Under the pieces are notes generated by a model. That model had not been told where the DNA came from. It saw only the letters and a list, made by a program, of their open reading frames with translations, and ran no database searches. This document shows positions 1-20,346 of a DNA stretch of 64,000 bases, piece by piece. Each line of letters opens with the position of its first letter. Within the stretch, counting starts at the first letter, position 1. The position numbers were made by a program, and so were the translations under genes. The stretch lies in contig SVTV01000008.1 of the NCBI GenBank assembly GCA_015063605.1, positions 5,038-69,037 on the forward strand, written 5' to 3'. This DNA comes from Oscillospiraceae bacterium (GTDB lineage Bacteria > Bacillota > Clostridia > Oscillospirales > SIG627).

Positions 1-1
1 C

Positions 2-2893
2 AATGAAATATTTTTCGGCGCTAAGGAAAGAGAAAAGATAGGAAGCCTTCTTCGTGAGCAGCTTGCTCTTACAAAGAAAAACGAGGTCAAGAGAAAGCAG
101 TTTATAAAGGATGAATTGTTAAAGCTTGAGAACGGCGACGAGCTTGCCAACGATCTTTATATAGGAAGCGTATACCCGACGGAGAATCTGTTTGACTATG
201 CTACGGAGCTTTTTTATATCGTTTATGAGCCGGATACGCTTTCAAATGTTCTTAAGGGTGCCATGGAGCTTTTGCATGAGAATCTCCGCATTCTTATAGA
301 GGAGGAGCGCATATTCGCTCCCGAAAGAGCGGACGGTCTTCTCTGGGGCTTCGATATATTCTGTGACCTTGTTTCAAACGGGCGGGGACTTGTTATCGAA
401 AGCTTTGTAACAGGAAAAACACCCGTAAAGCTTGCGGGAATTTATAATTTCAATTCAAGGACCACATTCCCCTACGGTGACAGCTTTGAGCTTTTGAAGG
501 ATACCCTTAAGGAATATACAGAAAGCGGATTTAAGACACTTCTTCTCTGCGACAATACCTTTTCCGCTCAGAATATGTACAATATCCTGACGGAAAACAA
601 TATCCGATCGGCAGTATGCGATGCTTCTGATGATATATCGGCTCTTCCCCGTGATATTGTGTATGTAACAGCCTCCATGAAGCAGGACAAGCGTGTTATG
701 ACCATCGGATCGGGATATGAGCTTGTGGCTACGAAATTCGTTATCCTTACGGATTCCTCCGTATCGGTCAGAAGAACAACGAAGCTTACAAGCGTATATT
801 CATCTAAAAAGAAAAACAGCGCCCGTGAGAAGATTATATCATATGCCGATCTTAACATAAATGATTACGTAGTTCACGATACCTTCGGTATAGGTATCTA
901 CAAGGGCACCGAAAAAATAATGAGGGACGGTGCCGAAAAGGACTTCCTGAAGATCGCTTATGCGGGAACCGATGTTCTTTACGTCCCTTGCTCCAATGTG
1001 GACAGCATTGCAAAATATATCGGCGGTGATGCCGACAGCGGAAATGTAAAATTGAGTAAAATGGGCGGCGGAGAATGGCGGAAAGCCAAGCAGAAGGCAA
1101 AGAGCGCCGCTAAGGATATAGCAAAGGATTTGATAAAGCTTTATTCCGAAAGAATGAAAACGAAGGGGCATGCATTTTCCGAGGATACGGAATGGCAAAA
1201 GGAATTTGAAGGCGCATTTGAATACGAGGAGACAGACGGTCAGCTCAGCGCAGTCGAGGATATAAAGAGGGATATGGAATCCCCCGTTCCCATGGACAGA
1301 CTCCTTTGCGGTGATGTTGGATTCGGAAAGACCGAGGTGGCATTGCGTGCCGTTTTCAAATGCGTTATGGACAATAAGCAGGCGGCTATCCTTGTTCCTA
1401 CCACTATTCTCGCATGGCAGCATTATCAGAATATATTGTCCCGCTTCAGAGGTTATCCCATAAGAGTTGCCATGCTGTCCCGCTTCGCTACTCCGAAGGA
1501 AGCACGTCAGACGGTAAAGGATCTGAAAAGCGGTATAGTTGATATAATTGTCGGCACACACAGGATCCTCTCCAAGGATGTGGAGATACCGAAGCTGGGG
1601 CTTGTCGTAATAGATGAGGAGCAGCGCTTCGGTGTGGCTCAAAAGGAAAAGCTGAAGGCTTTGCAGAAAAATGCCGACATTCTTACTTTGACCGCAACTC
1701 CCATTCCCCGTACTCTCAACATGGCGTTGGGCGGTATAAGAGATATGTCCGTACTTGAAGAAGCTCCGGGTGACAGATTCCCCGTACAGACATACGTTAT
1801 GGAATATGATGAGATACTCATTATGGAGGCTATAAGAAAAGAGCTTCGGAGAAGAGGACAGGTGTTTTACCTTTGCAACAATATAGAAGAGCATCTTCCG
1901 AGAGTAAACAAGATAAAGGAAATGTTCCCCGACGCCAATGTGGAAAGCGCAAACGGTCAGATGGATAAGGAGGTCCTTTCCGATATATGGAAGAATATGT
2001 CCGACGGAAAGATCGATGTGCTTGTCTGCACCACCATTATCGAAACGGGTGTAGACCTTCCCAACGCAAATACGCTGATAATAGAAAACTGTGATAAATA
2101 CGGTCTTTCCCAGCTTCATCAGATAAGAGGACGAATAGGACGAAGCGACAGAAAAGCATACGCCTTCCTGACATACAGAAGGGGAAGCGTTTTGTCCGAC
2201 ATAGCCTCTAAGCGTCTCAGCGCCATCAGGGAATATACGGAATTCGGAAGCGGCTTCAAGCTTGCAATGCGTGACCTTGAAATAAGAGGTGCGGGAAATC
2301 TTCTCGGAGCACAGCAGCACGGACACATGAATAATGTCGGTTATGAAATGTATATGCGTCTTTTGAATGAGGCTGTTGCCGAGGAAAAGGGTCAGACTGT
2401 AAAGAGCAAGACCTCAAGCGTTATAGACCTTACTCTCGATGCGTTTATTCCCGAAAAATATATCGAAAGCTCAAAAATGAGAATAGATATATACAAAAAG
2501 ATAGCATCCTGCGAGAATGAGGATGATTACAACGATCTTATGGATGAAATAATAGACCGTTTCGGAGATCCTCCCAAGACGGTGTGCGCCCTTTTCGATG
2601 TGGCGAGATTGAAAAATAAAGCGGAAAAATGCGGCATAACGAAGGTATCGCAGAACGGTGCGAATATGATCTATTTCATATCCGAGGATTTCGACAGAGA
2701 GACTCTTGTGCCTTTGTTTGAGCTTTACGGCAGAAGAATGAGGACCCCGAAGAGCTTCGATGATGCAAAGCCGAGCTTCTCGGTGGAATTTTCACTCGAT
2801 AAGCAAAGTGCGCTTTCAAGTGCCGATGAAATTCTTACACATATTATAGGATTCATGAAGCCCCGGGCGGATGGATCGGGAGAGGTGGAATAA
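2..2893 (+). CDS. mfd: transcription-repair coupling factor Mfd (N-terminus lies outside the window)
   Basis: The frame is open from the window edge, and the listed TTG at 116 is internal. It has a CarD-like segment (DYVVHDTFGIGIY), SF2 helicase motifs (GDVGFGKTEVA, DEEQRFG, QLHQIRGRIGRS) and a TRCF C-terminal region. Confidence 0.95.
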   Translation, partial: NEIFFGAKEREKIGSLLREQLALTKKNEVKRKQFIKDELLKLENGDELANDLYIGSVYPTENLFDYATELFYIVYEPDTLSNVLKGAMELLHENLRILIEEERIFAPERADGLLWGFDIFCDLVSNGRGLVIESFVTGKTPVKLAGIYNFNSRTTFPYGDSFELLKDTLKEYTESGFKTLLLCDNTFSAQNMYNILTENNIRSAVCDASDDISALPRDIVYVTASMKQDKRVMTIGSGYELVATKFVILTDSSVSVRRTTKLTSVYSSKKKNSAREKIISYADLNINDYVVHDTFGIGIYKGTEKIMRDGAEKDFLKIAYAGTDVLYVPCSNVDSIAKYIGGDADSGNVKLSKMGGGEWRKAKQKAKSAAKDIAKDLIKLYSERMKTKGHAFSEDTEWQKEFEGAFEYEETDGQLSAVEDIKRDMESPVPMDRLLCGDVGFGKTEVALRAVFKCVMDNKQAAILVPTTILAWQHYQNILSRFRGYPIRVAMLSRFATPKEARQTVKDLKSGIVDIIVGTHRILSKDVEIPKLGLVVIDEEQRFGVAQKEKLKALQKNADILTLTATPIPRTLNMALGGIRDMSVLEEAPGDRFPVQTYVMEYDEILIMEAIRKELRRRGQVFYLCNNIEEHLPRVNKIKEMFPDANVESANGQMDKEVLSDIWKNMSDGKIDVLVCTTIIETGVDLPNANTLIIENCDKYGLSQLHQIRGRIGRSDRKAYAFLTYRRGSVLSDIASKRLSAIREYTEFGSGFKLAMRDLEIRGAGNLLGAQQHGHMNNVGYEMYMRLLNEAVAEEKGQTVKSKTSSVIDLTLDAFIPEKYIESSKMRIDIYKKIASCENEDDYNDLMDEIIDRFGDPPKTVCALFDVARLKNKAEKCGITKVSQNGANMIYFISEDFDRETLVPLFELYGRRMRTPKSFDDAKPSFSVEFSLDKQSALSSADEILTHIIGFMKPRADGSGEVE

Positions 2894-3693
2894 TGCTTAC
2901 AAATTACCATACACATACGACCTTTTGCGACGGAAAGAATACCCCCGAAGAGGTGGCGGAGTCCGCTGGCGAAAAGGGCTTTGATGCTCTCGGATTTTCA
3001 GGTCATGCGGGCTCTCCCTACAGCAGCTACGGTATAAAGGATATGAGAGGATATATTACCGCTGTGAAGGAGTTGAAGGAAAAATATAAAGGAAAGCTTC
3101 AGATATATCTTGGCGTAGAAGAGGATATGTATGCTCCAGTAAACAGGGATGATTACGAATACCTCATCGGTTCTGCACACTATATATTCAAGAACGGCGT
3201 ATACTATCCCCTTGATTCAACAAATGAACGCTTGATGAAATGCGTTTCGGAATGTTTTGACAATGATGCGGTGAAGCTTGCCGAATCGTATTATTCGAGC
3301 TTTTGCGACTACATTTTCAAAAGGCGTCCCGATATTGTAGGTCATTTCGATCTGATAACCAAATTTGACGAAAAAAATGGAGGACTCTTTTCGGAAAACA
3401 GAGAGTATCTTTCCGTTGCGAAAAAGTATATGGAAAAAGCAGCCTCGTCGGGATGTCTATTCGAGGTGAATACGGGTGCAATATCAAGAGGATATGCTAC
3501 GACACCTTATCCCCGTGAAGAGCTTCTTTACGTTTTGAAAAAATGCGGCGGAGATGTTATCCTGTCATCGGATTCCCACAGCAGGGATACTCTTGATTGC
3601 TTTTTCGATGAAACAAAAAAGCTTCTCCGCTTTGCGGGATTTGAATATACTTACATTTTATATGACGGAAGCTTTATCCGTGACAGCTTATAA
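2893..3693 (+). CDS. PHP-family histidinol-phosphatase (HisJ/HisK-like)
   Basis: N-terminal YHTHTTFCDGK metal-binding motif and a later SDSH motif are typical of the PHP histidinol phosphatase family. The start overlaps the mfd stop by 1 nt. Confidence 0.8.
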   Translation: MLTNYHTHTTFCDGKNTPEEVAESAGEKGFDALGFSGHAGSPYSSYGIKDMRGYITAVKELKEKYKGKLQIYLGVEEDMYAPVNRDDYEYLIGSAHYIFKNGVYYPLDSTNERLMKCVSECFDNDAVKLAESYYSSFCDYIFKRRPDIVGHFDLITKFDEKNGGLFSENREYLSVAKKYMEKAASSGCLFEVNTGAISRGYATTPYPREELLYVLKKCGGDVILSSDSHSRDTLDCFFDETKKLLRFAGFEYTYILYDGSFIRDSL

Positions 3694-3719
3694 ATAAAAA
3701 TTAAAGGGAGGGAAAGGTC

Positions 3720-4970
3720 ATGTCATCGTATAACGAGCTTATAAAAAATTTCGAGCGCACAAGAGCATATATGCGTGAGTTTTACGTTTACGGCTTTAAA
3801 AGCCGTGAAGAATACAACAAAAAAAGCGCACGGTCATACGACGATGAACGGCGGAGAATGGAAAGCTGGCTCGGCGATCACATGAGCTTTGTCCGTACTC
3901 CCGAGGGAAAAAGCGTTTTTATTTCCATAGACAGCCGTAATATATGCCACAATCCCTTTTATAAACCGTGGAAAGCCAAAAGCTTTACGGATCTTGATGT
4001 TACACTTCACTTTATTGTATTCGATATCCTTCATTCACCGGAAATATCAATGACGGTAAATGAAATTATGGACGTTATCGACGAAGAATATTTGTCGGGA
4101 TTTGATTCTCCCATTATGTTTGATGAATCTACCGTCAGAAAAAAGCTTAAGGAATATTCCGAAGCCGGTATTATTACCGTTGAAAAGATAGGACGGAGAT
4201 CGTATTACAGAAGAAGCGAAACCACGGACATCACCGAGCTTGATGATGCGATCCACTATTTTTCCGAGGTGTTGCCATGCGGAGTTATCGGCTCTTTCAT
4301 TCTCGATAAAACGGAAGCGGATTCGGATGCCTTCGGCTTCAAGCATCACTACATAACGAGTGCCATGGACAGTGGTGAGCTTGCGGAGCTTTTTACCGCC
4401 ATGCGGAAAAAGTGCGTTGTCACGGTATCCAATCTCAGCAGAAGAAAAAGCGAGCCGGAAAGATACAGACTCATTCCTTTGAGGATATTCATAAGCGTTC
4501 AGAACGGAAGACAGCATCTTATAGCCTACAATTCCGAGTATAACTGCATGTCCTCATACCGTATCGACTATCTTTCCGATGTCATAATAGAAGAGCCGAC
4601 GCCGAGATTTGACGAATTACGCTCCATGCTTTCCGATATGCAGGAAAATATGTGGGGTGTCAATGTCAGAAAGGGTAATGCGGAGCTTGAGCATATTGAA
4701 TTTACTGTCAGAGTAAATGAGGATGAGGAACATATAGTCAGACGTCTGGAAAGAGAAAAACGTGTCGGCAGGGTCGAAAAGATAGATGAAAACACATACA
4801 GATTTTCAGCCGATGTGTACGATACCAATGAAATGGTACCGTGGGTAAGGACATTTATCTGCAGGATCACACAGTTGAAGATCACAAACCGTGAGGTGGA
4901 AAAGAGATTCAAGGAGGATCTTGAAGAAATGTACCGTATGTACGGAGTTGACAAGGAGGAAACGGAATGA
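3720..4970 (+). CDS. WYL-domain-like putative transcriptional regulator (wHTH + WYL-like + C-terminal extension), partner A
   Basis: It has a winged-helix-like segment (TVNEIMDVIDEEY...STVRKKLKEYSEAGIITVEK). A WYL-like core follows (RYRLIPLRIFISVQNGRQHLIAYNSE...YRIDYLSDV). An RBS (GGGAGGGAAAGG) lies upstream. Confidence 0.55.
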   Translation: MSSYNELIKNFERTRAYMREFYVYGFKSREEYNKKSARSYDDERRRMESWLGDHMSFVRTPEGKSVFISIDSRNICHNPFYKPWKAKSFTDLDVTLHFIVFDILHSPEISMTVNEIMDVIDEEYLSGFDSPIMFDESTVRKKLKEYSEAGIITVEKIGRRSYYRRSETTDITELDDAIHYFSEVLPCGVIGSFILDKTEADSDAFGFKHHYITSAMDSGELAELFTAMRKKCVVTVSNLSRRKSEPERYRLIPLRIFISVQNGRQHLIAYNSEYNCMSSYRIDYLSDVIIEEPTPRFDELRSMLSDMQENMWGVNVRKGNAELEHIEFTVRVNEDEEHIVRRLEREKRVGRVEKIDENTYRFSADVYDTNEMVPWVRTFICRITQLKITNREVEKRFKEDLEEMYRMYGVDKEETE

Positions 4971-5878
4971 TATTCAGTGAGCTTTACTCCGCATATTACA
5001 ATACAATCGCCGCAATGATCTCAAAAATTATCGACGGCGAAAACTCCGACGAGGAGCTTCGGAGGGTAGTGGAGGAAAGAGCATTCGGAGAAAGTATACT
5101 TACTGTCATACCTTCTCTGAAGGCGGGAAAGTGGCAGCTTGTTCATCCCGATATGACCACCTCTCTCGTTCATAAGCCTACTATGCCCTTGACCGTTCTT
5201 CAGAAGCAATGGCTGAAGGCTGTGTCTCTTGATCCGAGAATAAAGCTTTTTGATATTTCTTTTCCCGATCTCGGTGATACGGAGCCTCTTTTTACTCCGG
5301 ATGATTATTACATATACGATAAGTACAGTGACGGAGACCCCTTTGAGGATGAAGAGTATATAAGGCAGTTCAGAGTTATTCTTGAGGCAATACGTAAAAA
5401 AACGCAGATAAGGTTTGAAATGGTGAACCGCAAGGGAAATACCGTATTCGTAAGATGCTATCCCAAAAGGCTTGAGTATTCCGAAAAGGATGATAAGTTC
5501 AGAGTGGTAACATCGGGCTGGCGATCTGTTTCAAGTGTAAATCTGTCGAAAATAAGAGCTTGCTTCCCGTATTTGGGCGAAAAGACCTTGGATAAGGATA
5601 TGCGTGAGACAGAGTACGATACCGCCGTCTTAAGAATTGATGATGAAAGAAATGCTCTTGAAAGAGTCATGCTTCATTTTGCCCATTTTGAGAAGCAGGC
5701 GGAAAAGATCGACGATAAAACTTACGTATTGAAAATAAAATACGCTCATGATGATGAGACGGAAATTGTGATACGTGTTCTTTCCTTCGGCCCCAGAGTA
5801 AAGGTCTTGGGCTCGGAATCATTTAAGGAAGCTGTAATTGAAAAAATAAGAAAACAGAAAAACTGCGGACTCAAATAA
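4967..5878 (+). CDS. WYL-domain-like putative regulator, partner B
   Basis: ATGA stop/start overlap with the upstream gene. The N-terminus MIFSELYSAYYNTIAAMI is typical of Firmicute paired WYL proteins. A WYL-like core is present (VFVRCYPKRLEYSEKDDKFRVVTSGWRSVSSVNLSKI). Confidence 0.55.
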   Translation: MIFSELYSAYYNTIAAMISKIIDGENSDEELRRVVEERAFGESILTVIPSLKAGKWQLVHPDMTTSLVHKPTMPLTVLQKQWLKAVSLDPRIKLFDISFPDLGDTEPLFTPDDYYIYDKYSDGDPFEDEEYIRQFRVILEAIRKKTQIRFEMVNRKGNTVFVRCYPKRLEYSEKDDKFRVVTSGWRSVSSVNLSKIRACFPYLGEKTLDKDMRETEYDTAVLRIDDERNALERVMLHFAHFEKQAEKIDDKTYVLKIKYAHDDETEIVIRVLSFGPRVKVLGSESFKEAVIEKIRKQKNCGLK

Positions 5879-5879
5879 G

Positions 5880-5930
5880 AGTTCGCAGCTTTTTTTCCGT
5901 GAAAAAAAGGAAATGGGATGGTAAAATATA
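5880..5930 (+). promoter_or_regulatory. promoter/operator copy 1: inverted repeat CTTTTTTTC-CGT-GAAAAAAAG over the -35 region, plus extended -10 TGgTAAAAT
   Basis: AGTTCGCAGCTTTTTTTCCGTGAAAAAAAGGAAATGGGATGGTAAAATATA. An almost identical 51-bp block recurs at 8061-8111. The -10 TAAAAT is at 5922-5927 and the TG at 5919-5920. Confidence 0.6.
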
Positions 5931-5936
5931 GGCACA

Positions 5937-6017
5937 AAGGCACAGACAGCAAAAGAATTAGACACAGGAGTCAGATTCCTTTGGTCGTCGGGTTTATAGC
6001 CCGGATAATGTGCCTTG
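5937..6017 (+). ncRNA. Y-RNA-like module 1
   Basis: Closing stem AAGGCACA (5937-5944) pairs with TGTGCCTT (6009-6016). ACAGCAA lies 1 nt after the 5' arm and the module ends in CTTG. An internal anticodon-arm-like hairpin sits at 5966-5980 (7-nt loop GTCAGAT), with a hairpin CGGG-TTTATAG-CCCG after it. Confidence 0.55.
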
Positions 6018-6021
6018 AAAA

Positions 6022-6099
6022 AAGACACAGACAGCAAGCTTCAGCACAAGACTTTTAATCTTGGAGGCTTGGGGCGTTTAGCTCGGATAGTGTGTCTTG
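6022..6099 (+). ncRNA. Y-RNA-like module 2
   Basis: Closing stem AAGACACA (6022-6029) pairs with TGTGTCTT (6091-6098). ACAGCAA is at 6031-6037 and the module ends in CTTG. An internal hairpin CAAGA-CTTTTAA-TCTTG lies at 6047-6063. Confidence 0.55.
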
Positions 6100-6103
6100 A
6101 AAT

Positions 6104-6174
6104 AGGTGCGTACAGCAATGTATACAGATCTATTACACCGCCGGCTGTCGGAAAAACAGCCAAAACGCACCTTG
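6104..6174 (+). ncRNA. Y-RNA-like module 3
   Basis: Closing stem AGGTGCGT (6104-6111) pairs with ACGCACCT (6165-6172). ACAGCAA follows immediately and the module ends in CTTG. An internal hairpin GGCTGT-CGGAAAA-ACAGCC is present. Confidence 0.5.
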
Positions 6175-6179
6175 TTATA

Positions 6180-6235
6180 AAGACTCAACCAGCAATTATT
6201 TGTTATTTACCGGATAGGCAGTAAAATGAGTCTTG
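6180..6235 (+). ncRNA. Y-RNA-like module 4 (short)
   Basis: Closing stem AAGACTCA (6180-6187) pairs with TGAGTCTT (6227-6234). The motif is the variant CCAGCAA and the module ends in CTTG. Confidence 0.45.
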
Positions 6236-6246
6236 TGAACAAAGAA

Positions 6247-6359
6247 AAGATGCCGACAGCAAACATACATAAGCTATTATTCGCTGCATAGCAGCAGCTG
6301 TTCTTTGTAAGCAGCCACGAACGGAGTGAAAGTCTTCGTATGAGTTAAGATGCATCTTG
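6247..6359 (+). ncRNA. Y-RNA-like module 5 (long)
   Basis: Closing stem AAGATGC (6247-6253) pairs with GCATCTT (6352-6358). ACAGCAA is at 6256-6262 and the module ends in CTTG. Several internal hairpins are present (GCTGC-ATA-GCAGC, GCTG..CAGC). Confidence 0.45.
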
Positions 6360-6361
6360 TG

Positions 6362-6459
6362 AAGGCACTAACAGCAATTTATGAATAGTTTAGTGGTTAA
6401 AGCAGAGGATGTTGAGATCCTCGTACGCAAGTTCGAATCTTGCATCAAACAGTGCCTTG
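6362..6459 (+). ncRNA. YrlA-like Y RNA module 6 with tRNA-like domain
   Basis: Closing stem AAGGCACT (6362-6369) pairs with AGTGCCTT (6451-6458), with ACAGCAA at 6371-6377. The D arm is GTTT-AGTGGTTA-AAGC (6388-6403). The T arm is GCAAG-TTCGAAT-CTTGC (6427-6443). The anticodon arm is aberrant (6-nt loop) and the acceptor-like helix is imperfect. Confidence 0.7.
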
Positions 6460-6495
6460 TATTTATTAATAACATCATGAAAAGGAGTGAGTTTC

Positions 6496-7953
6496 ATGTT
6501 AGAATACTTAAAGAAAGAAGATAATAAGACCGTTACCGAAAACGGCGCTTCAACATACATATCGACAGAGTCGGAATGTCTCGACCTGTTCGCAACCATC
6601 GGTGCCTTGCGCCGTGAAAGCGACAACGAAATAGAAACACGCTTTATACGTGCGTTCAGCGAAAACAGAGATATCGCGATGAAGCTCCTGTTTTTCGCAA
6701 GAGATATCAGAGGAGGTCTCGGCGAGCGCCGTGTGTTCAAGGTGATCCTTAATTGGCTTGCAAAGAACGAGCCTCAAACGGTACGTAAAAACATAGAATA
6801 CGTTGCCGAGTACGGAAGATTTGACGATCTTCTCGTTCTCATGGGTACTTCCTTGGAAAAGGATATGCTCGATGCTTTGAAAAAGCAGTTTCAAGCCGAT
6901 ACGGAAGCCCTTGAAAAGGGCGGAGAAGTATCGCTTCTCGGAAAGTGGCTGCCCTCGGTGAACGCATCAAACAAAACAACAGTTAAATATGCTAAAAGAA
7001 TAGCAAAGCACTTCGGTATGAATGAAGCAAGCTACAGAAAGGCACTTGTTGCCCTTCGCAGCCGCATCAGAATAATCGAAAATAATCTCCGTGAGAAGGA
7101 TTATACCTTTGACTACTCAAAGCAACCCTCAAAGGCTATGCTCAAATACCGTAAGGCATTTGCCCGTAACGATGCCGAAAGATACAGAGCATTTCTTGAT
7201 AAGGTGCTTTCGGGTGAAGCGAAGCTCAATACAGGCACATTGATGCCTTATGAGCTTATCAGACCCATTATCCGCGGGAACGCGGGCGAGGAGGAAAGAA
7301 AGGCTTTGAACGCTTCCTGGATATCTCAGGAGGATCTCGGCAGCGGTGAAAATTCCCTTGCCGTGATCGACGGCTCCGGCTCAATGTACGGCTGGGGCGA
7401 GCCTATGCCCGCAACGGTGGCTCTTTCCCTCGGCATCTACTTTGCCGAGAGAAACAAAGGTGCTTTCGGAAATCACTTCATCACCTTCTCGGAGAATCCC
7501 CGTCTCGTTGAAATAAAGGGAGAAGACATTTTCGAAAAGGTGCGCTATTGCGCTTCCTTCAACGAAATAGCAAACACAAATATTCAAAAGGTGTTTGAGC
7601 TTATCCTTGATACGGCAAAAAAGAATTCCGTACCCGATGAAGAGCTTCCCCGTAAGCTTTACATCATTTCCGATATGGAATTTGACAGCTGTGCCGAGGA
7701 TGCCTCGATGACAAATTTTGAATATGCAAAGAAGATCTTTGCGGAAGCGGGATACACTCTTCCCGAGATCGTTTTCTGGAACGTGGCAAGCCGTAACAGG
7801 CAGCAGCCCGTAACAAAGAATGAGCAGGGTGTTGCCCTTGTATCCGGATGTACTCCCCGTCTGTTCACCATGGCGGCAAACGGCACGATGGAGCCTTATG
7901 CATTTATGCTTGAGGTCATCGAGAGCGAGAGATACGCAAAGATAACCGCATGA
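6496..7953 (+). CDS. Ro60-like TROVE/vWA protein of the DUF2828 type
   Basis: The N-terminal motif TVTENGASTYISTESECLDLF and GKWLPS match my recollection of DUF2828/TROVE-like proteins. The C-terminal vWA domain has the MIDAS motif VIDGSGSM. ATG 6496 with RBS AAAGGAG 8 nt upstream is preferred over the listed GTG 6487. Confidence 0.7.
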   Translation: MLEYLKKEDNKTVTENGASTYISTESECLDLFATIGALRRESDNEIETRFIRAFSENRDIAMKLLFFARDIRGGLGERRVFKVILNWLAKNEPQTVRKNIEYVAEYGRFDDLLVLMGTSLEKDMLDALKKQFQADTEALEKGGEVSLLGKWLPSVNASNKTTVKYAKRIAKHFGMNEASYRKALVALRSRIRIIENNLREKDYTFDYSKQPSKAMLKYRKAFARNDAERYRAFLDKVLSGEAKLNTGTLMPYELIRPIIRGNAGEEERKALNASWISQEDLGSGENSLAVIDGSGSMYGWGEPMPATVALSLGIYFAERNKGAFGNHFITFSENPRLVEIKGEDIFEKVRYCASFNEIANTNIQKVFELILDTAKKNSVPDEELPRKLYIISDMEFDSCAEDASMTNFEYAKKIFAEAGYTLPEIVFWNVASRNRQQPVTKNEQGVALVSGCTPRLFTMAANGTMEPYAFMLEVIESERYAKITA

Positions 7954-7959
7954 TCCTTG

Positions 7960-7990
7960 GAGTGCTGTCACGATACAGCACTCTTTTTTT
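7960..7990 (+). terminator. rho-independent terminator after the Ro-like gene
   Basis: GAGTGCTGT-cacgat-ACAGCACTC followed by T7. Confidence 0.85.
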
Positions 7991-8060
7991 ATTAGGAAAA
8001 ATGAACTTCCGAAATATGATAACACATTTTTTCACGGATACGTAAAACGGAGCTTTCTTA

Positions 8061-8111
8061 AGTTCGCAGGTTTTTTTCCGTGAAAAAAATAAAGCATGAT
8101 GGTAAAATATA
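8061..8111 (+). promoter_or_regulatory. promoter/operator copy 2 (same element as 5880-5930)
   Basis: AGTTCGCAGGTTTTTTTCCGTGAAAAAAATAAAGCATGATGGTAAAATATA. The -10 TAAAAT is at 8103-8108 with an upstream TG. Confidence 0.6.
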
Positions 8112-16540: not shown

Positions 16541-17219
16541 ACATAACGAAAATCAATATGCAGAGGAAGTGGAGAAGACTTCCGAGGAATGAAAAGAGAT
16601 GGAATACGGAATGAATATACTTTACATGCATTCTTTTTCCGATCATGTAAAGAATGGCTCCGAGTGTGTATGCGATACCCCCTCCGAGAAGAAGAGCAAA
16701 TCCGTATTTACCGAGAGCCCATGCCATTTCCTGCCATGCGCATACTACGAACCAACCCATGCCGAGATATGTTATCATGGAGAAGGTCTTGTATTTTTTC
16801 AAATCTATTGAATTGAATGTTATTCCGAGAAGGGCAAAAAACCAGATGAATCCGAAAATACTCCATCCCAGCTCGGGGTCAAAGGTGCAGAGCAGGGACA
16901 CCGTGAAAGGAGTATATGTTCCCGCAATGAGAATATAAATGGAGCAGTGATCTATGATCTGAAGAACCTTCTTTGACATAAGCTTGGGGCTGAGACCGTG
17001 GTAAATGCTTGAGCATGTATATACAACTATCATGGAGAAGCCGAAAATAGCGCCTGCAACGATGCCCGGAATATTTCCGTGAAGAGCCGCTTTTATCACA
17101 CAGGCGAATATTGCGACGATTCCCATAGCTGCACCGACGATGTGGCTTGTCATATTGAATATTTCTTCTCCCTTTGTGTATGGAGGAAGCAGTCTGTCCT
17201 TAAGCTTTGTTCTTTTCAT
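16539..17219 (-). CDS. hemolysin III / PAQR-family membrane protein
   Basis: Seven predicted TM helices. The EEIFNMTSHIVGA and SSIYHG motifs are typical of the family. Confidence 0.85.
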   Translation of the reverse strand: MKRTKLKDRLLPPYTKGEEIFNMTSHIVGAAMGIVAIFACVIKAALHGNIPGIVAGAIFGFSMIVVYTCSSIYHGLSPKLMSKKVLQIIDHCSIYILIAGTYTPFTVSLLCTFDPELGWSIFGFIWFFALLGITFNSIDLKKYKTFSMITYLGMGWFVVCAWQEMAWALGKYGFALLLGGGIAYTLGAILYMIGKRMHVKYIHSVFHLFSFLGSLLHFLCILIFVM

Positions 17220-17355
17220 GATTGATTTTCCTTTTTTCTATGAACTCAATTTATATGCTGTATAAGACAACTTAACAATTATAACAAATTGAAGTTGCAC
17301 ACGGTTGACGAAAATATGATAACTCTGTGAAATAGTTGCTTTTGATATGATAAAG

Positions 17356-17387
17356 CAAAAAAAGAGCCGCTTCAAATGAAACGGCTC
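17356..17387 (-). terminator. rho-independent terminator after tsf
   Basis: On the minus strand the stem is GAGCCGTTTC/GAAGCGGCTC (one mismatch), followed by T7. Confidence 0.8.
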
Positions 17388-17412
17388 GAAACATTCAAGT
17401 GATGTTTATTTA

Positions 17413-18333
17413 TTATTTGCCTGTAAGCTTAGCGATCTCTTCTGCAAAGTTATCTTCCTTCTTTTCGAGACCCTCACCGCGCTCATATCTGTAGAAGGAT
17501 TCTACTGCGCAAGGAGCACCGATCTCTGCGGATACGCCTGCAAGATACTTAGCTACGCTGATGTTATCTTCCTTAACATAACCCTGGAGAAGGAGACAGT
17601 TTGTTTCATAGAACTTGCCGAGACGGCCAACAACCATCTTTTCGATGATGTTAGCGGGCTTTTTAGCGTTAGCTTCGTCGTTCTTTATTGTGGAAGCGAT
17701 GATTTCCTTTTCGTTCTCAACGATGCTTGCAGGAACAGAAGCTTCATCGAGGTAAAGGGGATTCATAGCAGCGATCTGGAGAGCAACGTTCTTTGCAGCC
17801 TCTGCGAAGAGGGGAGCGTCGGAAGCGGGTTCAGCCATCTTAACGATAACGCCGATAGAGCCCTTACCGTGGATATATGTGCTGAGAGCGCCTTCTACGA
17901 TTACAAAACGTCTGATGCTGATGTTTTCGCCTATTGTAAATACCTTATCCTTAACAGCTGCTTCAACTGTGAGATCATCGGAGAAGGGAAGAGCCATAAG
18001 AGCATCCATATCAGCGGGCTTATTCTTGAGGATGACCTTAAGAATATCCTGAACGAATGTACGGAATGTTTCGTTCTTAGCTGCGAAGTCTGTTTCGATG
18101 TTAACTTCGATCATAGCCGCTGTCTTGCATTCGTCGCAGTAAAGTATATCAACTACGCCTTCAGCTGCTATACGTGTGGACTTCTTTGCAGCAACTGCAA
18201 GACCCTTTTCACGCAATATCTTTATAGCTTCTTCTTCGTTTCCGTTTGCTTCTGTGAGCGCCTTCTTGCACTCCATCATGCCTATACCGGTCTTAGCTCT
18301 GAGATCAGATACCTGTTTAGCTGTGATTGCCAT
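17413..18333 (-). CDS. tsf: translation elongation factor Ts
   Basis: N-terminal UBA-like MAITAKQVSDLRAKTGIGMMECKKAL and an EF-Ts dimerisation core. Confidence 0.97.
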   Translation of the reverse strand: MAITAKQVSDLRAKTGIGMMECKKALTEANGNEEEAIKILREKGLAVAAKKSTRIAAEGVVDILYCDECKTAAMIEVNIETDFAAKNETFRTFVQDILKVILKNKPADMDALMALPFSDDLTVEAAVKDKVFTIGENISIRRFVIVEGALSTYIHGKGSIGVIVKMAEPASDAPLFAEAAKNVALQIAAMNPLYLDEASVPASIVENEKEIIASTIKNDEANAKKPANIIEKMVVGRLGKFYETNCLLLQGYVKEDNISVAKYLAGVSAEIGAPCAVESFYRYERGEGLEKKEDNFAEEIAKLTGK

Positions 18334-18380
18334 ATATATTTCCTCTCGTTTTCTGTATTATTTATAGTGTCTGCTGATAA

Positions 18381-19187
18381 TTATTCAGCGTCTGCTGCGG
18401 GAGCCTGCTCGAAAAGAGCTTCAGCTTCTTCTGCGGAGATCTCTTCGGATTCGTCTGCTTCGTTTACCTTAGCAGCTTCTTCGTCAGCGGCTTCGCCCAT
18501 CTGTTCGCCCTGATTGCCTTCGAGAACAGCGTCAGCGAGAACGGAAGCGATAAGTCTGATAGCGCGGATAGCGTCATCGTTTCCGGGGATAACGTAATCG
18601 ATCTCATCGGGGTCACAGTTTGTATCAACGATAGCAACTATCGGAATACCGAGCTTCTTAGCTTCTGCTACAGCGTTTCTTTCCTTGCGGGGGTCAACTA
18701 TAAATACAACGGAGGGAAGTCCTTCCATGTTCTTGATACCGCCGAGGTTTCTCTCAAGAGTTTCCATTTCTTTTCTGAGAGAGATAACTTCCTTCTTGGG
18801 AAGAAGTTCGAATGTGCCGTCTTCTTCGAGCTTGTGAAGGTTGTTGAGACGAGCTATAGACTTCTTTATTGTCTTGAAGTTTGTAAGCATACCGCCGGGC
18901 CAACGAGCGTTTACAAAGTACATACCTGCTCTTTCAGCTTCTTCCTTGATAGCGTCCTGAGCCTGCTTCTTTGTTCCTACGAAAAGAATTGTTCCTTTGT
19001 CCTGTGCAATTTCATGTACGAAATTGTAAGCTTCCTCTACCTTCTTAACTGTCTTCTGAAGGTCGATGATGTAGATACCGTTTCTCTGAGTGAATATATA
19101 CTCAGCCATTTTGGGGTTCCATCTTCTGGTCTGGTGTCCGAAATGAACGCCTGCTTCCAGAAGCTGTTTCATAGAAATAACTGACAT
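18381..19187 (-). CDS. rpsB: 30S ribosomal protein S2
   Basis: [19 protein letters not shown] motif, with an acidic C-terminal tail. Confidence 0.97.
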
Positions 19188-19299
19188 TTAAAATGTCCTC
19201 CTTAAAATTGGGTTTTTATACCACCACGTGCTCTAAACAAAAACATATTCGCAGAATACGACCCTTTTGAATAAGCACACGTGTGTGAATTACCGTAAT

Positions 19300-19328
19300 A
19301 TTATAGCAAAAAGTGCCGCAAAAATCAA
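19300..19328 (-). promoter_or_regulatory. sigma-A-type promoter for rpsB-tsf
   Basis: Minus strand: TTGATT, 17 nt spacer, TATAAT. Confidence 0.55.
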
Positions 19329-19404
19329 TAGCGATTTAAAAAAACGGCACTTTTTTACAATATTTTTCATGAAACCGTCACAATAACTGCTTCGGAATTT
19401 TTGT

Positions 19405-20346
19405 TTACAGTATCCATCCTGCCAATTGTATCATTGCGGGAAGTGTTACCATTGAAAAGAGCGTTGAAAGACCCACGCACTGAGCCGCAAGAGACGAGTC
19501 GCAGTCGTATAATTCCGCAAAGATCGCCGTGTTTGTCGCCGAAGGAACGGCACACATGGTTATCAGCATATAGGAGATGACCTCGGGCAGAGAAAGTATC
19601 TTGCATACGGCTATCATCAGAAGAGGCTGGAGAAGAAGCTTAAATGCGCAGAATATGTACACTCTTTTGTTGGTGAGCACTTTTTTGAAATCAAGGCGCG
19701 ATATCAGTGTTCCTATGATTATCATGGAAAGAGGGAAGGTAAGATCTCCCACCATATCCACTGCATCCCATAATATCCCGGGAAGCTTTATTCCTGCGGC
19801 AAAGAGTACGATACCCACGAGACTTGCGATCGTTCCCGCATTTACGAATACCTTCTTCAGTGAGGGCTTTTCAACATTTTCCTTGCCCTTTTGAAGCATC
19901 ACTATTCCGTATGTCCAAAGATAAAGATTGAACATCAGGCAGTAGAATGAGCCGTAAAAAACGCCGACACCTTCACCGAATATGGCATCGAGTACAGGGT
20001 AACCCAGAAATGCACAATTTCCGAATATTATGGAAAAGCGCATTATCTTATTCTTTTCCGCTTCCTTTTCCCATCCGAACAAAAGCTTTCCGAAAAAGGT
20101 CATGAGAATGTGTATCACCACCGACGCTCCCAATATTATAAGGGCGTTTTTGAGCTTTTCCGCTTCGAAATCCATCTGAAATGACGTGATTATGAGAAGA
20201 GGGGAGGTAATGTTTACAAGAAGTGAAGAAAGTGTTTTCGTGCCTTTTTCATCCACAAACCGCTTTTTACCTGCGTAAAAGCCGATAAGCAGTATGAGAA
20301 AAAGCATCGCAACCTTTGAAACAACAAGCGAAGGGTTTATCTGCAT
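19405..20346 (-). CDS. AEC-family (auxin efflux carrier-like) transporter
   Basis: About 10 TM helices and a two-repeat membrane topology typical of the AEC family. Confidence 0.8.
   Translation of the reverse strand: MQINPSLVVSKVAMLFLILLIGFYAGKKRFVDEKGTKTLSSLLVNITSPLLIITSFQMDFEAEKLKNALIILGASVVIHILMTFFGKLLFGWEKEAEKNKIMRFSIIFGNCAFLGYPVLDAIFGEGVGVFYGSFYCLMFNLYLWTYGIVMLQKGKENVEKPSLKKVFVNAGTIASLVGIVLFAAGIKLPGILWDAVDMVGDLTFPLSMIIIGTLISRLDFKKVLTNKRVYIFCAFKLLLQPLLMIAVCKILSLPEVISYMLITMCAVPSATNTAIFAELYDCDSSLAAQCVGLSTLFSMVTLPAMIQLAGWIL

What the first reader, a model, noticed from the sequence alone, without database searches (positions are those of the whole stretch)
5880..5930. The same 51-bp promoter/operator occurs twice (5880-5930 and 8061-8111), heading the two halves of the island
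Seen in sequence: copy 1 is AGTTCGCAGCTTTTTTTCCGTGAAAAAAAGGAAATGGGATGGTAAAATATA. Copy 2 is AGTTCGCAGGTTTTTTTCCGTGAAAAAAATAAAGCATGATGGTAAAATATA. Both have an 8-9-bp inverted repeat (C)TTTTTTTC-CGT-GAAAAAAA(G) overlapping a weak -35 (GTGAAA) and an extended -10 (TG-n-TAAAAT). Sequence between the conserved blocks diverges. That argues for selection on the blocks rather than a recent duplication. Inference: this is a shared operator giving coordinate control of the Y-RNA/Ro-like unit and the leader/SPFH/RtcB unit. The adjacent WYL pair is the most plausible regulator.
Basis: partly seen in the sequence, partly recalled or inferred. Interest (0 to 1): 0.6.

Follow-up and report, generated by a model that had tools for sequence, protein, structure and literature searches.

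The report
Conserved WYL-box promoter for RNA-repair units
The repeated 51-bp element is a real, strongly conserved promoter carrying a 20-bp protein-binding box, found next to a pair of WYL-domain regulator genes in hundreds of gut Clostridia, and it most likely switches on RNA-repair genes and their companion structured RNAs together.

Summary
There are two copies (5880-5930 and 8061-8111, 44/51 identical), and no third copy in the 64 kb.

Comparative data show a sigma-A promoter with a conserved upstream box. The box is TTCGCAGCTTTTTTTCCGTG, at about -52 to -33. A TAnnnT -10 hexamer follows 17 nt after GTG in 123 of 130 unique instances, usually TG-extended.

A blind scan of 185,579 species genomes found the box only in Clostridia. 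In 89 of 105 testable cases it lay directly downstream of a WYL-1/WYL-2 gene pair. It always headed RtcB, SPFH-RtcB, DUF2828 or, in one clade, the WYL genes themselves.

In 80 protein-anchored metagenome loci, 69 keep the box, down to 49% WYL-2 identity. The six loci with room but no box also lack the cargo genes.

In copy 1 the left half of the box doubles as the 3' arm and U-tract of the WYL operon terminator.

Both WYL proteins resemble PafBC, DriD, BrxR and CapW. Best reading: a WYL-pair-dependent promoter of the DriD/PafBC type. Whether it activates or represses, and what the signal is, remain inferred.

Verdict: a new member of a known kind, of moderate interest.

The parts
3720..4970 (+). 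WYL-1 gene (416 aa): conserved N-terminal domain, winged-HTH (about residues 100-170), WYL, WCX. Candidate DNA-binding subunit of the regulator.
   Evidence: Pfam WYL 7e-6, PaaX-type HTH 2.3e-4, WCX 2.6e-3. PADLOC WYL 8.6e-15. Foldseek top hits are DriD, BrxR and PafBC at 7e-9 to 1e-7. The putative recognition helix D135-Y146 is invariant in 25 diverse homologues.
4967..5878 (+). WYL-2 gene (303 aa), overlapping WYL-1 by 4 nt (ATGA). WYL and WCX domains. Candidate partner subunit.
   Evidence: PADLOC WYL 2.2e-9. Pfam WCX 2.1e-4. Foldseek top hit is PafBC bound to RNAP (9fnd) at 4e-8, then DriD, CapW and BrxR. More than 6000 homologues.
5863..5896 (+). Intrinsic terminator of the WYL operon. 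The hairpin CTGCGGACTC/GAGTTCGCAG has its 5' arm in the last WYL-2 codons, followed by a U7 tract. Its 3' arm and U-tract are the left half of box copy 1.
   Evidence: Terminator scan. RNA fold of 5855-5897: dG -19.6, z -6.4. 78/122 unique boxes have a fully pairing 7-nt partner, with wobble-compatible variants and three CTGCGAG/CTCGCAG double changes.
5882..5901 (+). WYL-box copy 1, TTCGCAGCTTTTTTTCCGTG (about -52 to -33).
   Evidence: Family conservation.
5899..5927 (+). Promoter 1: -35-like GTGAAA (5899-5904), 17-nt spacer, extended -10 TGgTAAAAT (5919-5927). Predicted start about 5934.
   Evidence: Conservation of the downstream RNA begins at the predicted start.
5931..6486 (+). Transcript 1, non-coding part: tandem array of six stem-closed modules (5' ..ACAGCAA, 3' ..TTG). 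The last holds a tRNA-like element (6379-6451).
   Evidence: Sequence. Repeat family D2. MFE fold z -3.9. Rfam tRNA 34.5 bits. ARAGORN negative.
6487..7953 (+). DUF2828/DUF7788 protein (488 aa), the cargo of unit 1.
   Evidence: Pfam 6e-38 and 3.5e-46. No TROVE or PDB sequence hit.
7959..7990 (+). Intrinsic terminator of unit 1.
   Evidence: Fold dG -15.3, z -5.6.
8063..8082 (+). WYL-box copy 2, TTCGCAGGTTTTTTTCCGTG. It has no hairpin partner upstream.
   Evidence: Fold of 8036-8078 gives z -0.13.
8080..8108 (+). Promoter 2: GTGAAA (8080-8085), 17-nt spacer, TGgTAAAAT (8100-8108). Predicted start about 8115.
8113..8548 (+). Transcript 2, non-coding part: a conserved structured RNA of about 430 nt with a tRNA T-arm-like hairpin (8222-8240), ending at the SPFH ribosome-binding site.
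   Evidence: Alignment of 28 homologues and RNAalifold: 68 pairs, 54 with compensatory changes.
8549..9670 (+). SPFH/Band-7 protein.
   Evidence: Pfam Band_7 5.9e-31.
9667..10875 (+). RtcB RNA ligase.
   Evidence: Pfam RtcB 9.5e-58. NCBIfam RtcB family 6e-42.
10928..10975 (+). Intrinsic terminator of unit 2.
   Evidence: 17-bp stem followed by T7.

Best explanation
Each copy is a housekeeping-sigma (sigma-A type) promoter. It has an extended -10 (TGnTAAAAT) and, in place of a proper -35, a 20-23-bp 'WYL box'. The box is TTCGCAG-C-TTTTTTT-CCGTG(AA), spanning about -52 to -31 and centred near -41.5.

The box is the binding site of the regulator encoded immediately upstream. That regulator is a PafBC-like pair of wHTH-WYL-WCX proteins (WYL-1/WYL-2), probably acting as a heterodimer.

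When its WYL domains bind a signal, the pair most likely recruits or stabilises RNA polymerase at the box. By analogy with RtcR the signal is most plausibly damaged or cleaved RNA; ssDNA is not excluded. The action would resemble DriD or PafBC, with the site overlapping the -35 position at a fixed distance from the -10.

This would switch on two units together:
- the RNA-module array plus DUF2828;
- the structured RNA plus SPFH and RtcB.

In copy 1 the left half of the box (AGTTCGCAG plus T7) additionally serves, at the RNA level, as the 3' arm and U-tract of the terminator that ends the WYL operon.

Shown: the repeat, the promoter geometry, the conservation, the linkage to the WYL pair and cargo, and the terminator.
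Inferred: that the WYL pair binds the box (about 0.75), that it activates rather than represses (about 0.55 given binding), and the nature of the signal (about 0.4).
For: Promoter:
- A TAnnnT hexamer lies exactly 17 nt after GTG in 123/130 unique instances and at 16 or 18 nt in 6. It is TG-extended in 86. None of this was part of the search pattern.
- In 70 protein-anchored instances T-12, A-11 and T-7 are each present in 69/70.
- Conserved RNA sequence starts at the predicted start site.

Box under selection:
- Positions -51 to -47, -43 to -39, -37, -36 and -34 are invariant; -38, -35 and -33 are 69/70. The spacer from -27 to -14 carries under 0.6 bit.
- The box is kept at 43-49% WYL-2 identity.
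- 44 boxes without a hairpin partner, including window copy 2, keep TTCGCAG and T7.

Link to the WYL pair:
- A blind scan of one genome per species found 119 or more stretches, all Clostridia.
- 89/105 boxes with enough upstream sequence follow a WYL-2 gene within 700 nt.
- 69/80 protein-anchored metagenome loci carry the box. The six with room but no box also lack RtcB, SPFH and DUF2828.
- 21/121 unique WYL-1 upstream regions carry the box with its own -10, which points to autoregulation.
- The first recognised gene downstream of 192 unique boxes is SPFH 48, RtcB 47, DUF2828 33 and WYL-1 18.

Regulator class:
- PADLOC WYL hits both proteins.
- Foldseek hits are exclusively PafBC, DriD, BrxR, CapW and Cas13d-WYL1, at 1e-8 to 1e-4.
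- The genes overlap by 4 nt.
- The WYL-1 HTH helix is invariant, matching an invariant box.

Architecture matches DriD:
- DriD binds a 7-N7-7 pseudo-palindrome overlapping the -35 position, at an identical distance from the -10 in all targets, and those promoters lack a -35 (PMC13004042).
- Here TTCGCAG and CCGTGAA are 5/7 reverse-complementary, and the -35-like hexamer drifts (GTGATA, GTGTTT) while the spacing stays rigid.
Against: - There is no experimental evidence of transcription start, binding or regulation.
- The AlphaFold models are of low confidence (pLDDT 55 and 66). PDB sequence searches gave nothing significant.
- The -10 is near-consensus and TG-extended, so the promoter could fire without help. 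That fits a repressor as well as an activator. BrxR and CapW, which are repressors, are also among the structural hits.
- The half-site symmetry is weak (5/7), and its outer AA is not invariant.
- Much of the box sample was found with a pattern that fixes 21 positions. Unbiased conservation rests on the 80 protein-anchored loci, which are still selected at 4 or fewer mismatches for the logo.
- At least 7 box-headed units have no WYL gene within 3 kb. I could not confirm that those genomes encode the pair elsewhere.
- The heterodimer is inferred only from gene adjacency.
Confidence: 0.45

Rival explanations
1. Same site and same protein, but the opposite sign. The WYL pair is a repressor of the BrxR/CapW type. 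It sits on the box, occludes the -35/UP region of an intrinsically strong extended -10 promoter, and leaves when its WYL domains bind the damage signal.
For: - The -10 is near-consensus with a TG extension at both window copies and in 86/130 relatives. GTGAAA is a 4/6 match to the -35. Such promoters are usually active unaided.
- BrxR and CapW are clear structural neighbours.
- The autoregulatory box copies are typical of autorepressors.
- WYL transcription factors in conflict systems are generally described as negative regulators (PMC9503650).
Against: - The box keeps a rigid 17-nt distance to the -10 while the -35-like hexamer itself drifts to 2-3/6 matches (GTGTTT, GTGATT). A steric repressor does not need that rigidity. 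An RNAP-contacting activator does, as with DriD and PafBC.
- The top structural hits are the activators PafBC and DriD.
- The two-gene (heterodimer) organisation is that of PafBC.
Confidence: 0.3
2. No dedicated regulator binds the box. It is a constitutive promoter whose T-tract acts as an UP-like element and whose left half is simply the terminator of the preceding gene. Partner-less copies are duplicated relics carried along with the cassettes.
For: - 78/122 boxes do have the hairpin partner, and T7 is a proper U-tract.
- T/A tracts just upstream of -35 are known to stimulate sigma-A promoters (general knowledge).
- Cargo units look modular and could have spread by duplication.
Against: - 44 partner-less boxes, the boxes upstream of WYL-1, and the divergently arranged L064 and L209 keep TTCGCA and CCGTG intact across 43-75% protein divergence.
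- Neither sigma-A nor alpha-CTD contacts explain invariant TCGCA and CCG.
- The box is virtually never found away from WYL/RNA-repair loci.
- The box is lost together with the cargo.
Confidence: 0.08
3. The box is bound by some other trans-acting factor encoded elsewhere, such as another transcription factor or an alternative sigma factor. The WYL pair would be only a neighbour with a different role, for example RNA binding like the Cas13d accessory protein WYL1.
For: - At least 7 box-headed units are not adjacent to WYL genes.
- An RNA-binding WYL protein (6oaw) is among the structural hits.
- L059 has an ECF-like sigma gene just upstream.
Against: - No other gene is consistently linked. The upstream genes in stand-alone loci are unrelated housekeeping genes. 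Mfd/PHP and AraC are not conserved neighbours.
- WYL-1 carries a conserved wHTH.
- The -10 is of sigma-A type.
- The autoregulatory boxes in front of WYL-1 fit a transcription factor that recognises its own box.
Confidence: 0.07
4. One reading: the operator is the 8-9-bp inverted repeat TTTTTTTC-CGT-GAAAAAAA, recognised symmetrically by a dimer.
For: The repeat is perfect in both window copies. A at -32 and -31 is common (66/70 and 60/70), and the majority form is GTGAAAAA.
Against: - Conservation is asymmetric. The left arm is invariant, whereas the right arm falls to 52, 46 and 42 of 70, and at the two outermost positions A is present in only 4 and 17 of 70.
- The variants GTGATA, GTGTTT, GTGATT and GTGCAA retain everything else.
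- This version does not explain the invariant TTCGCA 8 nt further upstream.
Confidence: 0.05

Closest known systems
DriD-dependent promoters of Caulobacter crescentus (WYL activator; PMC13004042, PMC10853764)
   Same: - The regulator is a wHTH-WYL-WCX protein, and both window proteins hit DriD structures.
- The binding site has two 7-nt half-sites with a 7-9-nt spacer, overlaps the position of the -35, and lies at an identical distance from a recognisable -10 in every target.
- The promoters lack a good -35 (searches compared).
   Different: - DriD is a homodimer with a good palindrome (ATACGAC-N7-GTCGTAT), senses ssDNA and controls DNA-damage genes.
- Here there are two different subunits and a weakly symmetric box with an invariant T7 centre.
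- The organisms are Firmicutes, and the regulon consists of RNA-repair proteins and structured RNAs.
- Binding and the ligand are untested.
PafBC and its hybrid promoters in Actinobacteria (PMC8635444, PMC11804915)
   Same: - Two adjacent paralogous WYL genes give a heterodimeric regulator.
- Target promoters have a canonical -10, no -35, and a factor-specific upstream element.
- PafBC bound to RNAP is the best structural hit for WYL-2.
   Different: - The PafBC element lies at -23 to -28 ('-26 element'). Here that region is unconserved and the box lies at -52 to -33.
- There is no significant sequence similarity (E 0.8).
- The phylum, regulon and presumably the signal all differ.
BrxR / CapW WYL repressors of phage-defence operons
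   Same: They share the protein fold class. Their operator overlaps the promoter of the adjacent operon, and autoregulation is present (here in one clade).
   Different: They are homodimers on palindromes, acting as repressors of defence systems. Here the regulator is a gene pair, the box-to-(-10) spacing is rigid, and the cargo is RNA repair. None of the cargo proteins matches a PADLOC defence model.
RtcR / sigma-54 control of rsr-yrlBA-rtcBA in Salmonella (PMC7790460)
   Same: The logic is the same. A ligand-sensing regulator is encoded next to an operon that combines an RtcB ligase, a Y-RNA-type or tRNA-like RNA and an RNA-binding protein, and the operon is induced as a unit.
   Different: RtcR is a CARF-AAA+ enhancer-binding protein acting on a sigma-54 promoter. 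Here the regulator is a WYL pair and the promoter is of sigma-A type with TGnTAAAAT. This is analogy, not homology.
Band-7 / b7a-tRNA / RtcB neighbourhoods (Burroughs and Aravind 2016, as cited in bioRxiv 10.1101/312249)
   Same: Unit 2 (structured RNA with a tRNA-like arm, then SPFH/Band-7, then RtcB) is this predicted association.
   Different: That work concerns the cargo. I could not read it. I found no description of the promoter box or of its link to a WYL pair. Only a general statement was found that some WYL transcription factors regulate RNA-repair pathways.

Membership tests
Sigma-70/sigma-A type promoter with extended -10 | -10 hexamer TAnnnT at a defined position | tested here: met
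   TAAAAT at 5922-5927 and 8103-8108. 123/130 unique relatives have TAnnnT at the same 17-nt offset. T-12, A-11 and T-7 are each present in 69/70.
Sigma-70/sigma-A type promoter with extended -10 | TG dinucleotide one base upstream of the -10 | tested here: met
   Present in both window copies and in 86/130 relatives.
Sigma-70/sigma-A type promoter with extended -10 | -35 hexamer close to TTGACA, 16-18 nt upstream | tested here: inconclusive
   GTGAAA is a 4/6 match at 17 nt. In relatives it drifts to GTGATA, GTGTTT and GTGATT while CCGTG stays fixed. The conservation is therefore not that of a -35.
Sigma-70/sigma-A type promoter with extended -10 | Mapped transcription start | not testable with these tools
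   No transcript data are available. The only support is indirect: the conserved RNA begins at the predicted +1.
WYL-transcription-factor-dependent promoter (DriD/PafBC type) | Cognate regulator has wHTH-WYL-WCX architecture | tested here: met
   Pfam WYL, WCX and HTH. PADLOC WYL 8.6e-15 and 2.2e-9. Foldseek hits only this family at 1e-8 to 1e-4. The models are of low confidence. The wHTH of WYL-2 is not demonstrated.
WYL-transcription-factor-dependent promoter (DriD/PafBC type) | Factor site overlaps or replaces the -35, at a constant distance from the -10 | tested here: met
   The box lies at -52 to -33 and the spacing is fixed in 123/130. For comparison see PMC13004042.
WYL-transcription-factor-dependent promoter (DriD/PafBC type) | Pseudo-palindromic site for a dimer | tested here: inconclusive
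   TTCGCAG versus the reverse complement of CCGTGAA matches at 5/7, with the axis at about -41.5. The outer AA is present in 66/70 and 60/70.
WYL-transcription-factor-dependent promoter (DriD/PafBC type) | Direct, ligand-modulated binding of the factor and an effect on transcription | not testable with these tools
   This needs EMSA or footprinting and in vitro transcription.
PafBC system specifically | Two adjacent paralogous WYL genes forming a heterodimer | tested here: inconclusive
   The genes are adjacent, with a 4-nt overlap, in the window and nearly all loci. Paralogy is weak (hhalign E 0.004). Dimerisation is untested.
PafBC system specifically | -26 element (-23 to -28) upstream of a canonical -10 | tested here: not met
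   Positions -28 to -23 carry 0.64 bit or less. The conserved element is at -52 to -33 (PMC8635444).
RtcR / sigma-54 regulated rtc operon | Sigma-54 promoter and a CARF-AAA+ enhancer-binding protein | tested here: not met
   The conserved promoter elements are TGnTAnnnT. The regulator candidates are WYL proteins, and no AAA+ or CARF domain was detected.
Intrinsic (rho-independent) terminator (left half of the box) | GC-rich hairpin followed directly by a U-tract, at the end of a gene | tested here: met
   Copy 1: 10-bp stem at 5863-5888 plus T7; dG -19.6, z -6.4. The partner is conserved in 78/122 boxes. Copy 2 does not meet this (z -0.13).

The most novel reading that the evidence does not exclude
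The WYL-1/WYL-2 pair is a Firmicute counterpart of RtcR. It would be a heterodimeric WYL transcription factor whose WYL domains sense damaged RNA (for example tRNA halves or 2',3'-cyclic-phosphate ends) rather than ssDNA. Through one invariant box it would drive a portable regulon of box-headed cassettes, including stand-alone cassettes elsewhere in the genome. The cassettes are Y-RNA-like arrays with DUF2828, a 430-nt tRNA-like RNA with SPFH and RtcB, and AAA ATPases. This would be the first RNA-damage-responsive WYL activator, and a second, independent solution to inducing RNA repair.
Probability: 0.3. Interest if true: 0.75.

Novelty: new member of a known kind. Interest (0 to 1): 0.5.

Why it matters
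WYL-domain regulators are known to answer to ssDNA (PafBC, DriD, CapW) and to control DNA-damage or phage-defence genes. RNA-repair operons have one understood switch, RtcR with sigma-54.

This box ties a very widespread WYL gene pair in gut and rumen Clostridia (more than 6000 homologues) to RtcB, SPFH, DUF2828 and two families of structured RNAs. It gives an exact 20-bp sequence with which to test three things:
- whether the pair binds the box;
- which ligand it senses;
- what the whole regulon is.

The box also offers a simple genomic marker for finding further RNA-repair cassettes and their non-coding RNAs. It shows an economical design in which one sequence serves as the terminator of the regulator operon and as the operator and promoter of its target.

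Tried and rejected
- Rfam, with permissive thresholds over 1-20000, has no family for the box or the two RNAs apart from a tRNA-like hit. ARAGORN found no tRNA.
- PDB sequence searches with the single WYL proteins and with profiles gave nothing significant. PafBC appeared only at E 0.8.
- The AlphaFold models from shallow alignments were poor (pLDDT 55 and 66). I used them only for fold-class assignment.
- The T7/A7 inverted repeat was rejected as the operator on asymmetric conservation. As an RNA hairpin it is not better than shuffles.
- Terminator-only explanation: rejected because 44 partner-less boxes are conserved.
- An inverted half-box at 8024-8035 is not conserved in relatives.
- Mfd-like, PHP and AraC genes as part of the system: they are not conserved neighbours.
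- DUF2828 as Ro/TROVE: there is no sequence support.
- A phage origin is unlikely: only 2 boxes in 2.9 million viral contigs, both in WYL loci. No cargo protein matches a PADLOC defence model.
- Burroughs and Aravind 2016 could not be retrieved.
- An alternative regulator next to stand-alone boxes: none was found.
Full report
**Observation**

They are 86% identical. The 28-nt left block occurs exactly twice in the 64-kb window even with three mismatches allowed, against none in 100 shuffles. With the 20-nt core, the next-best match anywhere in the window has six mismatches. The consensus scan finds GTGAAA-17-TAAAAT with a TG extension at both copies.

**Context**

All of the following lie on the + strand.

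| Coordinates | Feature |
|---|---|
| 116-2893 | Mfd-like gene |
| 2893-3693 | PHP gene |
| 3720-4970 | WYL-1 |
| 4967-5878 | WYL-2, overlapping WYL-1 by 4 nt |
| 5880-5930 | Repeat copy 1 |
| 5931-6486 | 556 nt of non-coding sequence |
| 6487-7953 | DUF2828/DUF7788 protein |
| 7959-7984 | Terminator |
| 8061-8111 | Repeat copy 2 |
| 8113-8548 | 436 nt of non-coding sequence |
| 8549-9670 | SPFH/Band-7 |
| 9667-10875 | RtcB |
| 10928-10965 | Terminator |

The source is a Ruminococcaceae metagenome-assembled genome, according to the name attached to the identical WYL-2 protein.

**Is it a promoter?**

I collected related loci in three ways:
- Contigs encoding WYL-2 homologues of about 72% identity.
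- A blind scan of one genome for each of 185,579 species with TCGCAGnTTTTTTTCCGTGAAA. All were Clostridia.
- 80 metagenome loci anchored on the WYL-2 protein alone, at 49-74% identity.

The findings were:
- In 130 unique box instances, a TAnnnT hexamer lies exactly 17 nt after GTG in 123 and at 16 or 18 nt in six. It is TG-extended in 86. The -10 was not part of any search pattern, so this is independent evidence.
- In the protein-anchored set, T-12, A-11 and T-7 are each present in 69/70.
- The sequence of the hexamer varies (TAAAAT, TATAAT, TATACT, TACAAT and others) while its position does not. That is the signature of a functional -10.
- Conserved RNA sequence begins at the predicted start.

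I take the promoter reading as well supported. The predicted starts are near 5934 and 8115.

**What is conserved upstream**

Setting the -10 at -12 to -7, the logo of 70 protein-anchored instances is as follows.

| Position | Conservation |
|---|---|
| -51 to -47 (TCGCA) | Invariant |
| -43 to -39 (T5) | Invariant; T-38 in 69/70 |
| -37, -36, -34 (C, C, T) | Invariant |
| -35, -33 (G, G) | 69/70 each |
| A-32 / A-31 / A-30 / A-29 / A-28 | 66 / 60 / 52 / 46 / 42 of 70 |
| -27 to -14 | Under 0.6 bit |

The selected element is therefore TTCGCAG-C-T7-CCGTG(AA). Loci with GTGATA, GTGTTT, GTGATT or GTGCAA keep everything else.

An alternative weak symmetry exists. TTCGCAG and the reverse complement of CCGTGAA agree at 5 of 7 positions. 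The axis lies at about -41.5, and T7 is the central spacer.

The box persists at 43% WYL-2 identity in a divergently arranged locus.

**Dual use as a terminator**

In copy 1, CTGCGGACTC (the last codons of WYL-2) pairs with GAGTTCGCAG, and T7 follows. The fold has dG -19.6 kcal/mol and z -6.4.

- Of 122 unique boxes, 78 have a fully pairing 7-nt partner 7-26 nt upstream. The variants are wobble-compatible (CTGCGGA, CTGTGAA, CTGCGAA), and there are three double changes CTGCGAG/CTCGCAG.
- The other 44 have no partner. These include window copy 2 (z -0.13), boxes placed after a separate terminator, and boxes upstream of WYL-1. All of them keep the box.

The terminator role is therefore real but cannot explain the conservation.

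**Who binds it**

Linkage to the WYL pair is strong:
- In the blind genome scan, 89 of 105 boxes with at least 1300 nt of upstream sequence lie within 700 nt downstream of a WYL-2 gene on the same strand. Several of the rest are second copies in the same locus.
- Across 192 unique boxes, the first recognisable gene downstream is SPFH (48), RtcB (47), DUF2828 (33) or WYL-1 (18).
- 69 of 80 protein-anchored loci carry a box. Five of the 11 without one have almost no downstream sequence. The other six also lack all cargo genes.
- In one clade (21 of 121 unique WYL-1 upstream regions), a box with its own -10 sits 70-86 nt before WYL-1. The window's clade lacks this.
- Only two boxes occur in 2.9 million viral contigs, and both are in WYL loci.
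- Mfd, PHP and AraC are not conserved neighbours.
- About seven box-headed RtcB or DUF2828 units have no WYL gene within 3 kb and sit among unrelated housekeeping genes. This suggests action in trans, but I could not scan those genomes.

**What the WYL proteins are**

- Pfam finds WYL, a PaaX-type HTH and WCX in WYL-1, and WCX in WYL-2.
- The PADLOC WYL model hits both proteins, at 8.6e-15 and 2.2e-9.
- Direct and profile searches of PDB sequences gave nothing significant.
- The AlphaFold models were weak (pLDDT 55 and 66). Even so, their Foldseek matches at 1e-8 to 1e-4 are exclusively wHTH-WYL-WCX regulators: PafBC bound to RNA polymerase, DriD, BrxR, CapW and the Cas13d accessory WYL1.
- The stretch D135-Y146 of WYL-1 aligns with the recognition helix of ArsR/SmtB-type HTH domains. 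It is invariant in 25 homologues of 53-73% identity. This fits an invariant DNA target.
- The two proteins are at best distant paralogues.

**Mechanism**

DriD binds ATACGAC-N7-GTCGTAT. That site overlaps the place of the -35, at an identical distance from the -10 in all its promoters, and those promoters lack a -35 (PMC13004042). PafBC is a heterodimer of two adjacent WYL genes. It adapts sigma-A to hybrid promoters with a canonical -10 and a factor-specific element (PMC8635444).

The present promoters share the fixed geometry, the drifting -35-like hexamer and the two-gene regulator. The best-supported model is therefore activation by the WYL pair bound at the box.

Repression of the BrxR/CapW type is the main rival, because the extended -10 is strong enough to work alone.

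The signal is unknown. By analogy with RtcR, which senses damaged tRNA (PMC7790460), and given general statements that WYL factors may sense RNA ends (PMC9503650), damaged RNA is the attractive guess.

**What the promoters drive**

Transcript 1 starts with six tandem stem-closed modules. Each has a different closing stem and the shared ACAGCAA...TTG flanks. The last encloses a tRNA-like element.

Transcript 2 starts with a structured RNA of about 430 nt. Of its 68 predicted pairs, 54 show compensatory changes in 28 homologues. It probably contains the 'band-7-associated tRNA' predicted earlier.

**Known or new**

The cargo associations (Band-7 with RtcB and a tRNA-like RNA; Ro-type protein with Y RNA and RtcB) are in the literature. 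So is the idea that some WYL factors control RNA repair. I found no description of this box, of its promoter geometry, or of the WYL-pair link in Clostridia. The key 2016 survey could not be read.

I class it as a new member of a known kind: a WYL-factor-dependent promoter.

**Limits**

Everything about binding, sign and signal is inference. Most box instances were ascertained with a pattern that fixes 21 positions. The structural assignment rests on low-confidence models.

Noticed in passing
window 8113-8548: The 'leader' of SPFH-RtcB is a large conserved structured RNA of about 430 nt. It has a tRNA T-arm-like hairpin (GCGGGTTCGAATCCCGC, 8223-8239). In 28 homologues, 54 of 68 predicted pairs show compensatory changes. 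It has no Rfam family. It probably includes the predicted b7a-tRNA but is much larger than a tRNA.
   Followed up: partly
window 5931-6486: Tandem array of six hairpin-closed RNA modules sharing 5' ..ACAGCAA and 3' ..TTG flanks. The closing stems differ (GGCAC, GACAC, GTGCG, GACTC, GATGC, GGCAC). The last module holds a tRNA-like element at 6379-6451. It looks like a polycistronic array of Y-RNA-like units. Related loci start with GGTCACGAAAGGCACAGACAGCAA.
   Followed up: partly
The relationship, if any, would need a structure comparison.
   Followed up: partly
window 3720-4004 (WYL-1 residues 1-95): WYL-1 carries an extra, highly conserved, Arg/Lys-rich N-terminal domain ahead of its wHTH. 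It has no family or structure match and is not present in DriD. It may be a second nucleic-acid-binding module.
   Followed up: no
window 8024-8035: TTTTTTCACGGA is the exact reverse complement of the right part of the box (TCCGTGAAAAAA), 27 nt upstream of copy 2's TTCGCAG. It is not conserved in relatives (6/188). It could be chance, a relic or an auxiliary site.
   Followed up: yes
L184 about 3940 and L185 about 3940; also L175, L178: In some metagenome loci the box is cut right after TTCGCAG(C)(T) and followed by unrelated sequence (TTCAGACTGTCG...), with the cargo genes absent within 3 kb. This suggests an insertion or deletion with a breakpoint in the T-tract.
   Followed up: no
L001 8916-10164 and 10174-12959: The cargo behind the box is modular. 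In L001 the first box heads an AAA/STAND-like ATPase gene and a second box heads the RNA array plus DUF2828. L007 has two boxes, each heading an RNA array. The same MAG can hold two separate WYL-pair loci (L020/L031 and L067/L068).
   Followed up: partly
L037, L058, L059, L060, L071, L086, L117: Box-headed RtcB or DUF2828 units with no WYL gene within 3 kb or more, set among housekeeping genes (LeuRS, GatB/AspRS, 1-phosphofructokinase). This suggests a dispersed regulon served in trans.
   Followed up: partly
window 116-3693: An Mfd/TRCF-like helicase and a PHP-domain protein lie directly upstream of WYL-1 (a 26-nt gap). They are not neighbours of the WYL pair in any related locus, so how the WYL operon is transcribed in this genome is unclear. 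The window has no autoregulatory box.
   Followed up: partly
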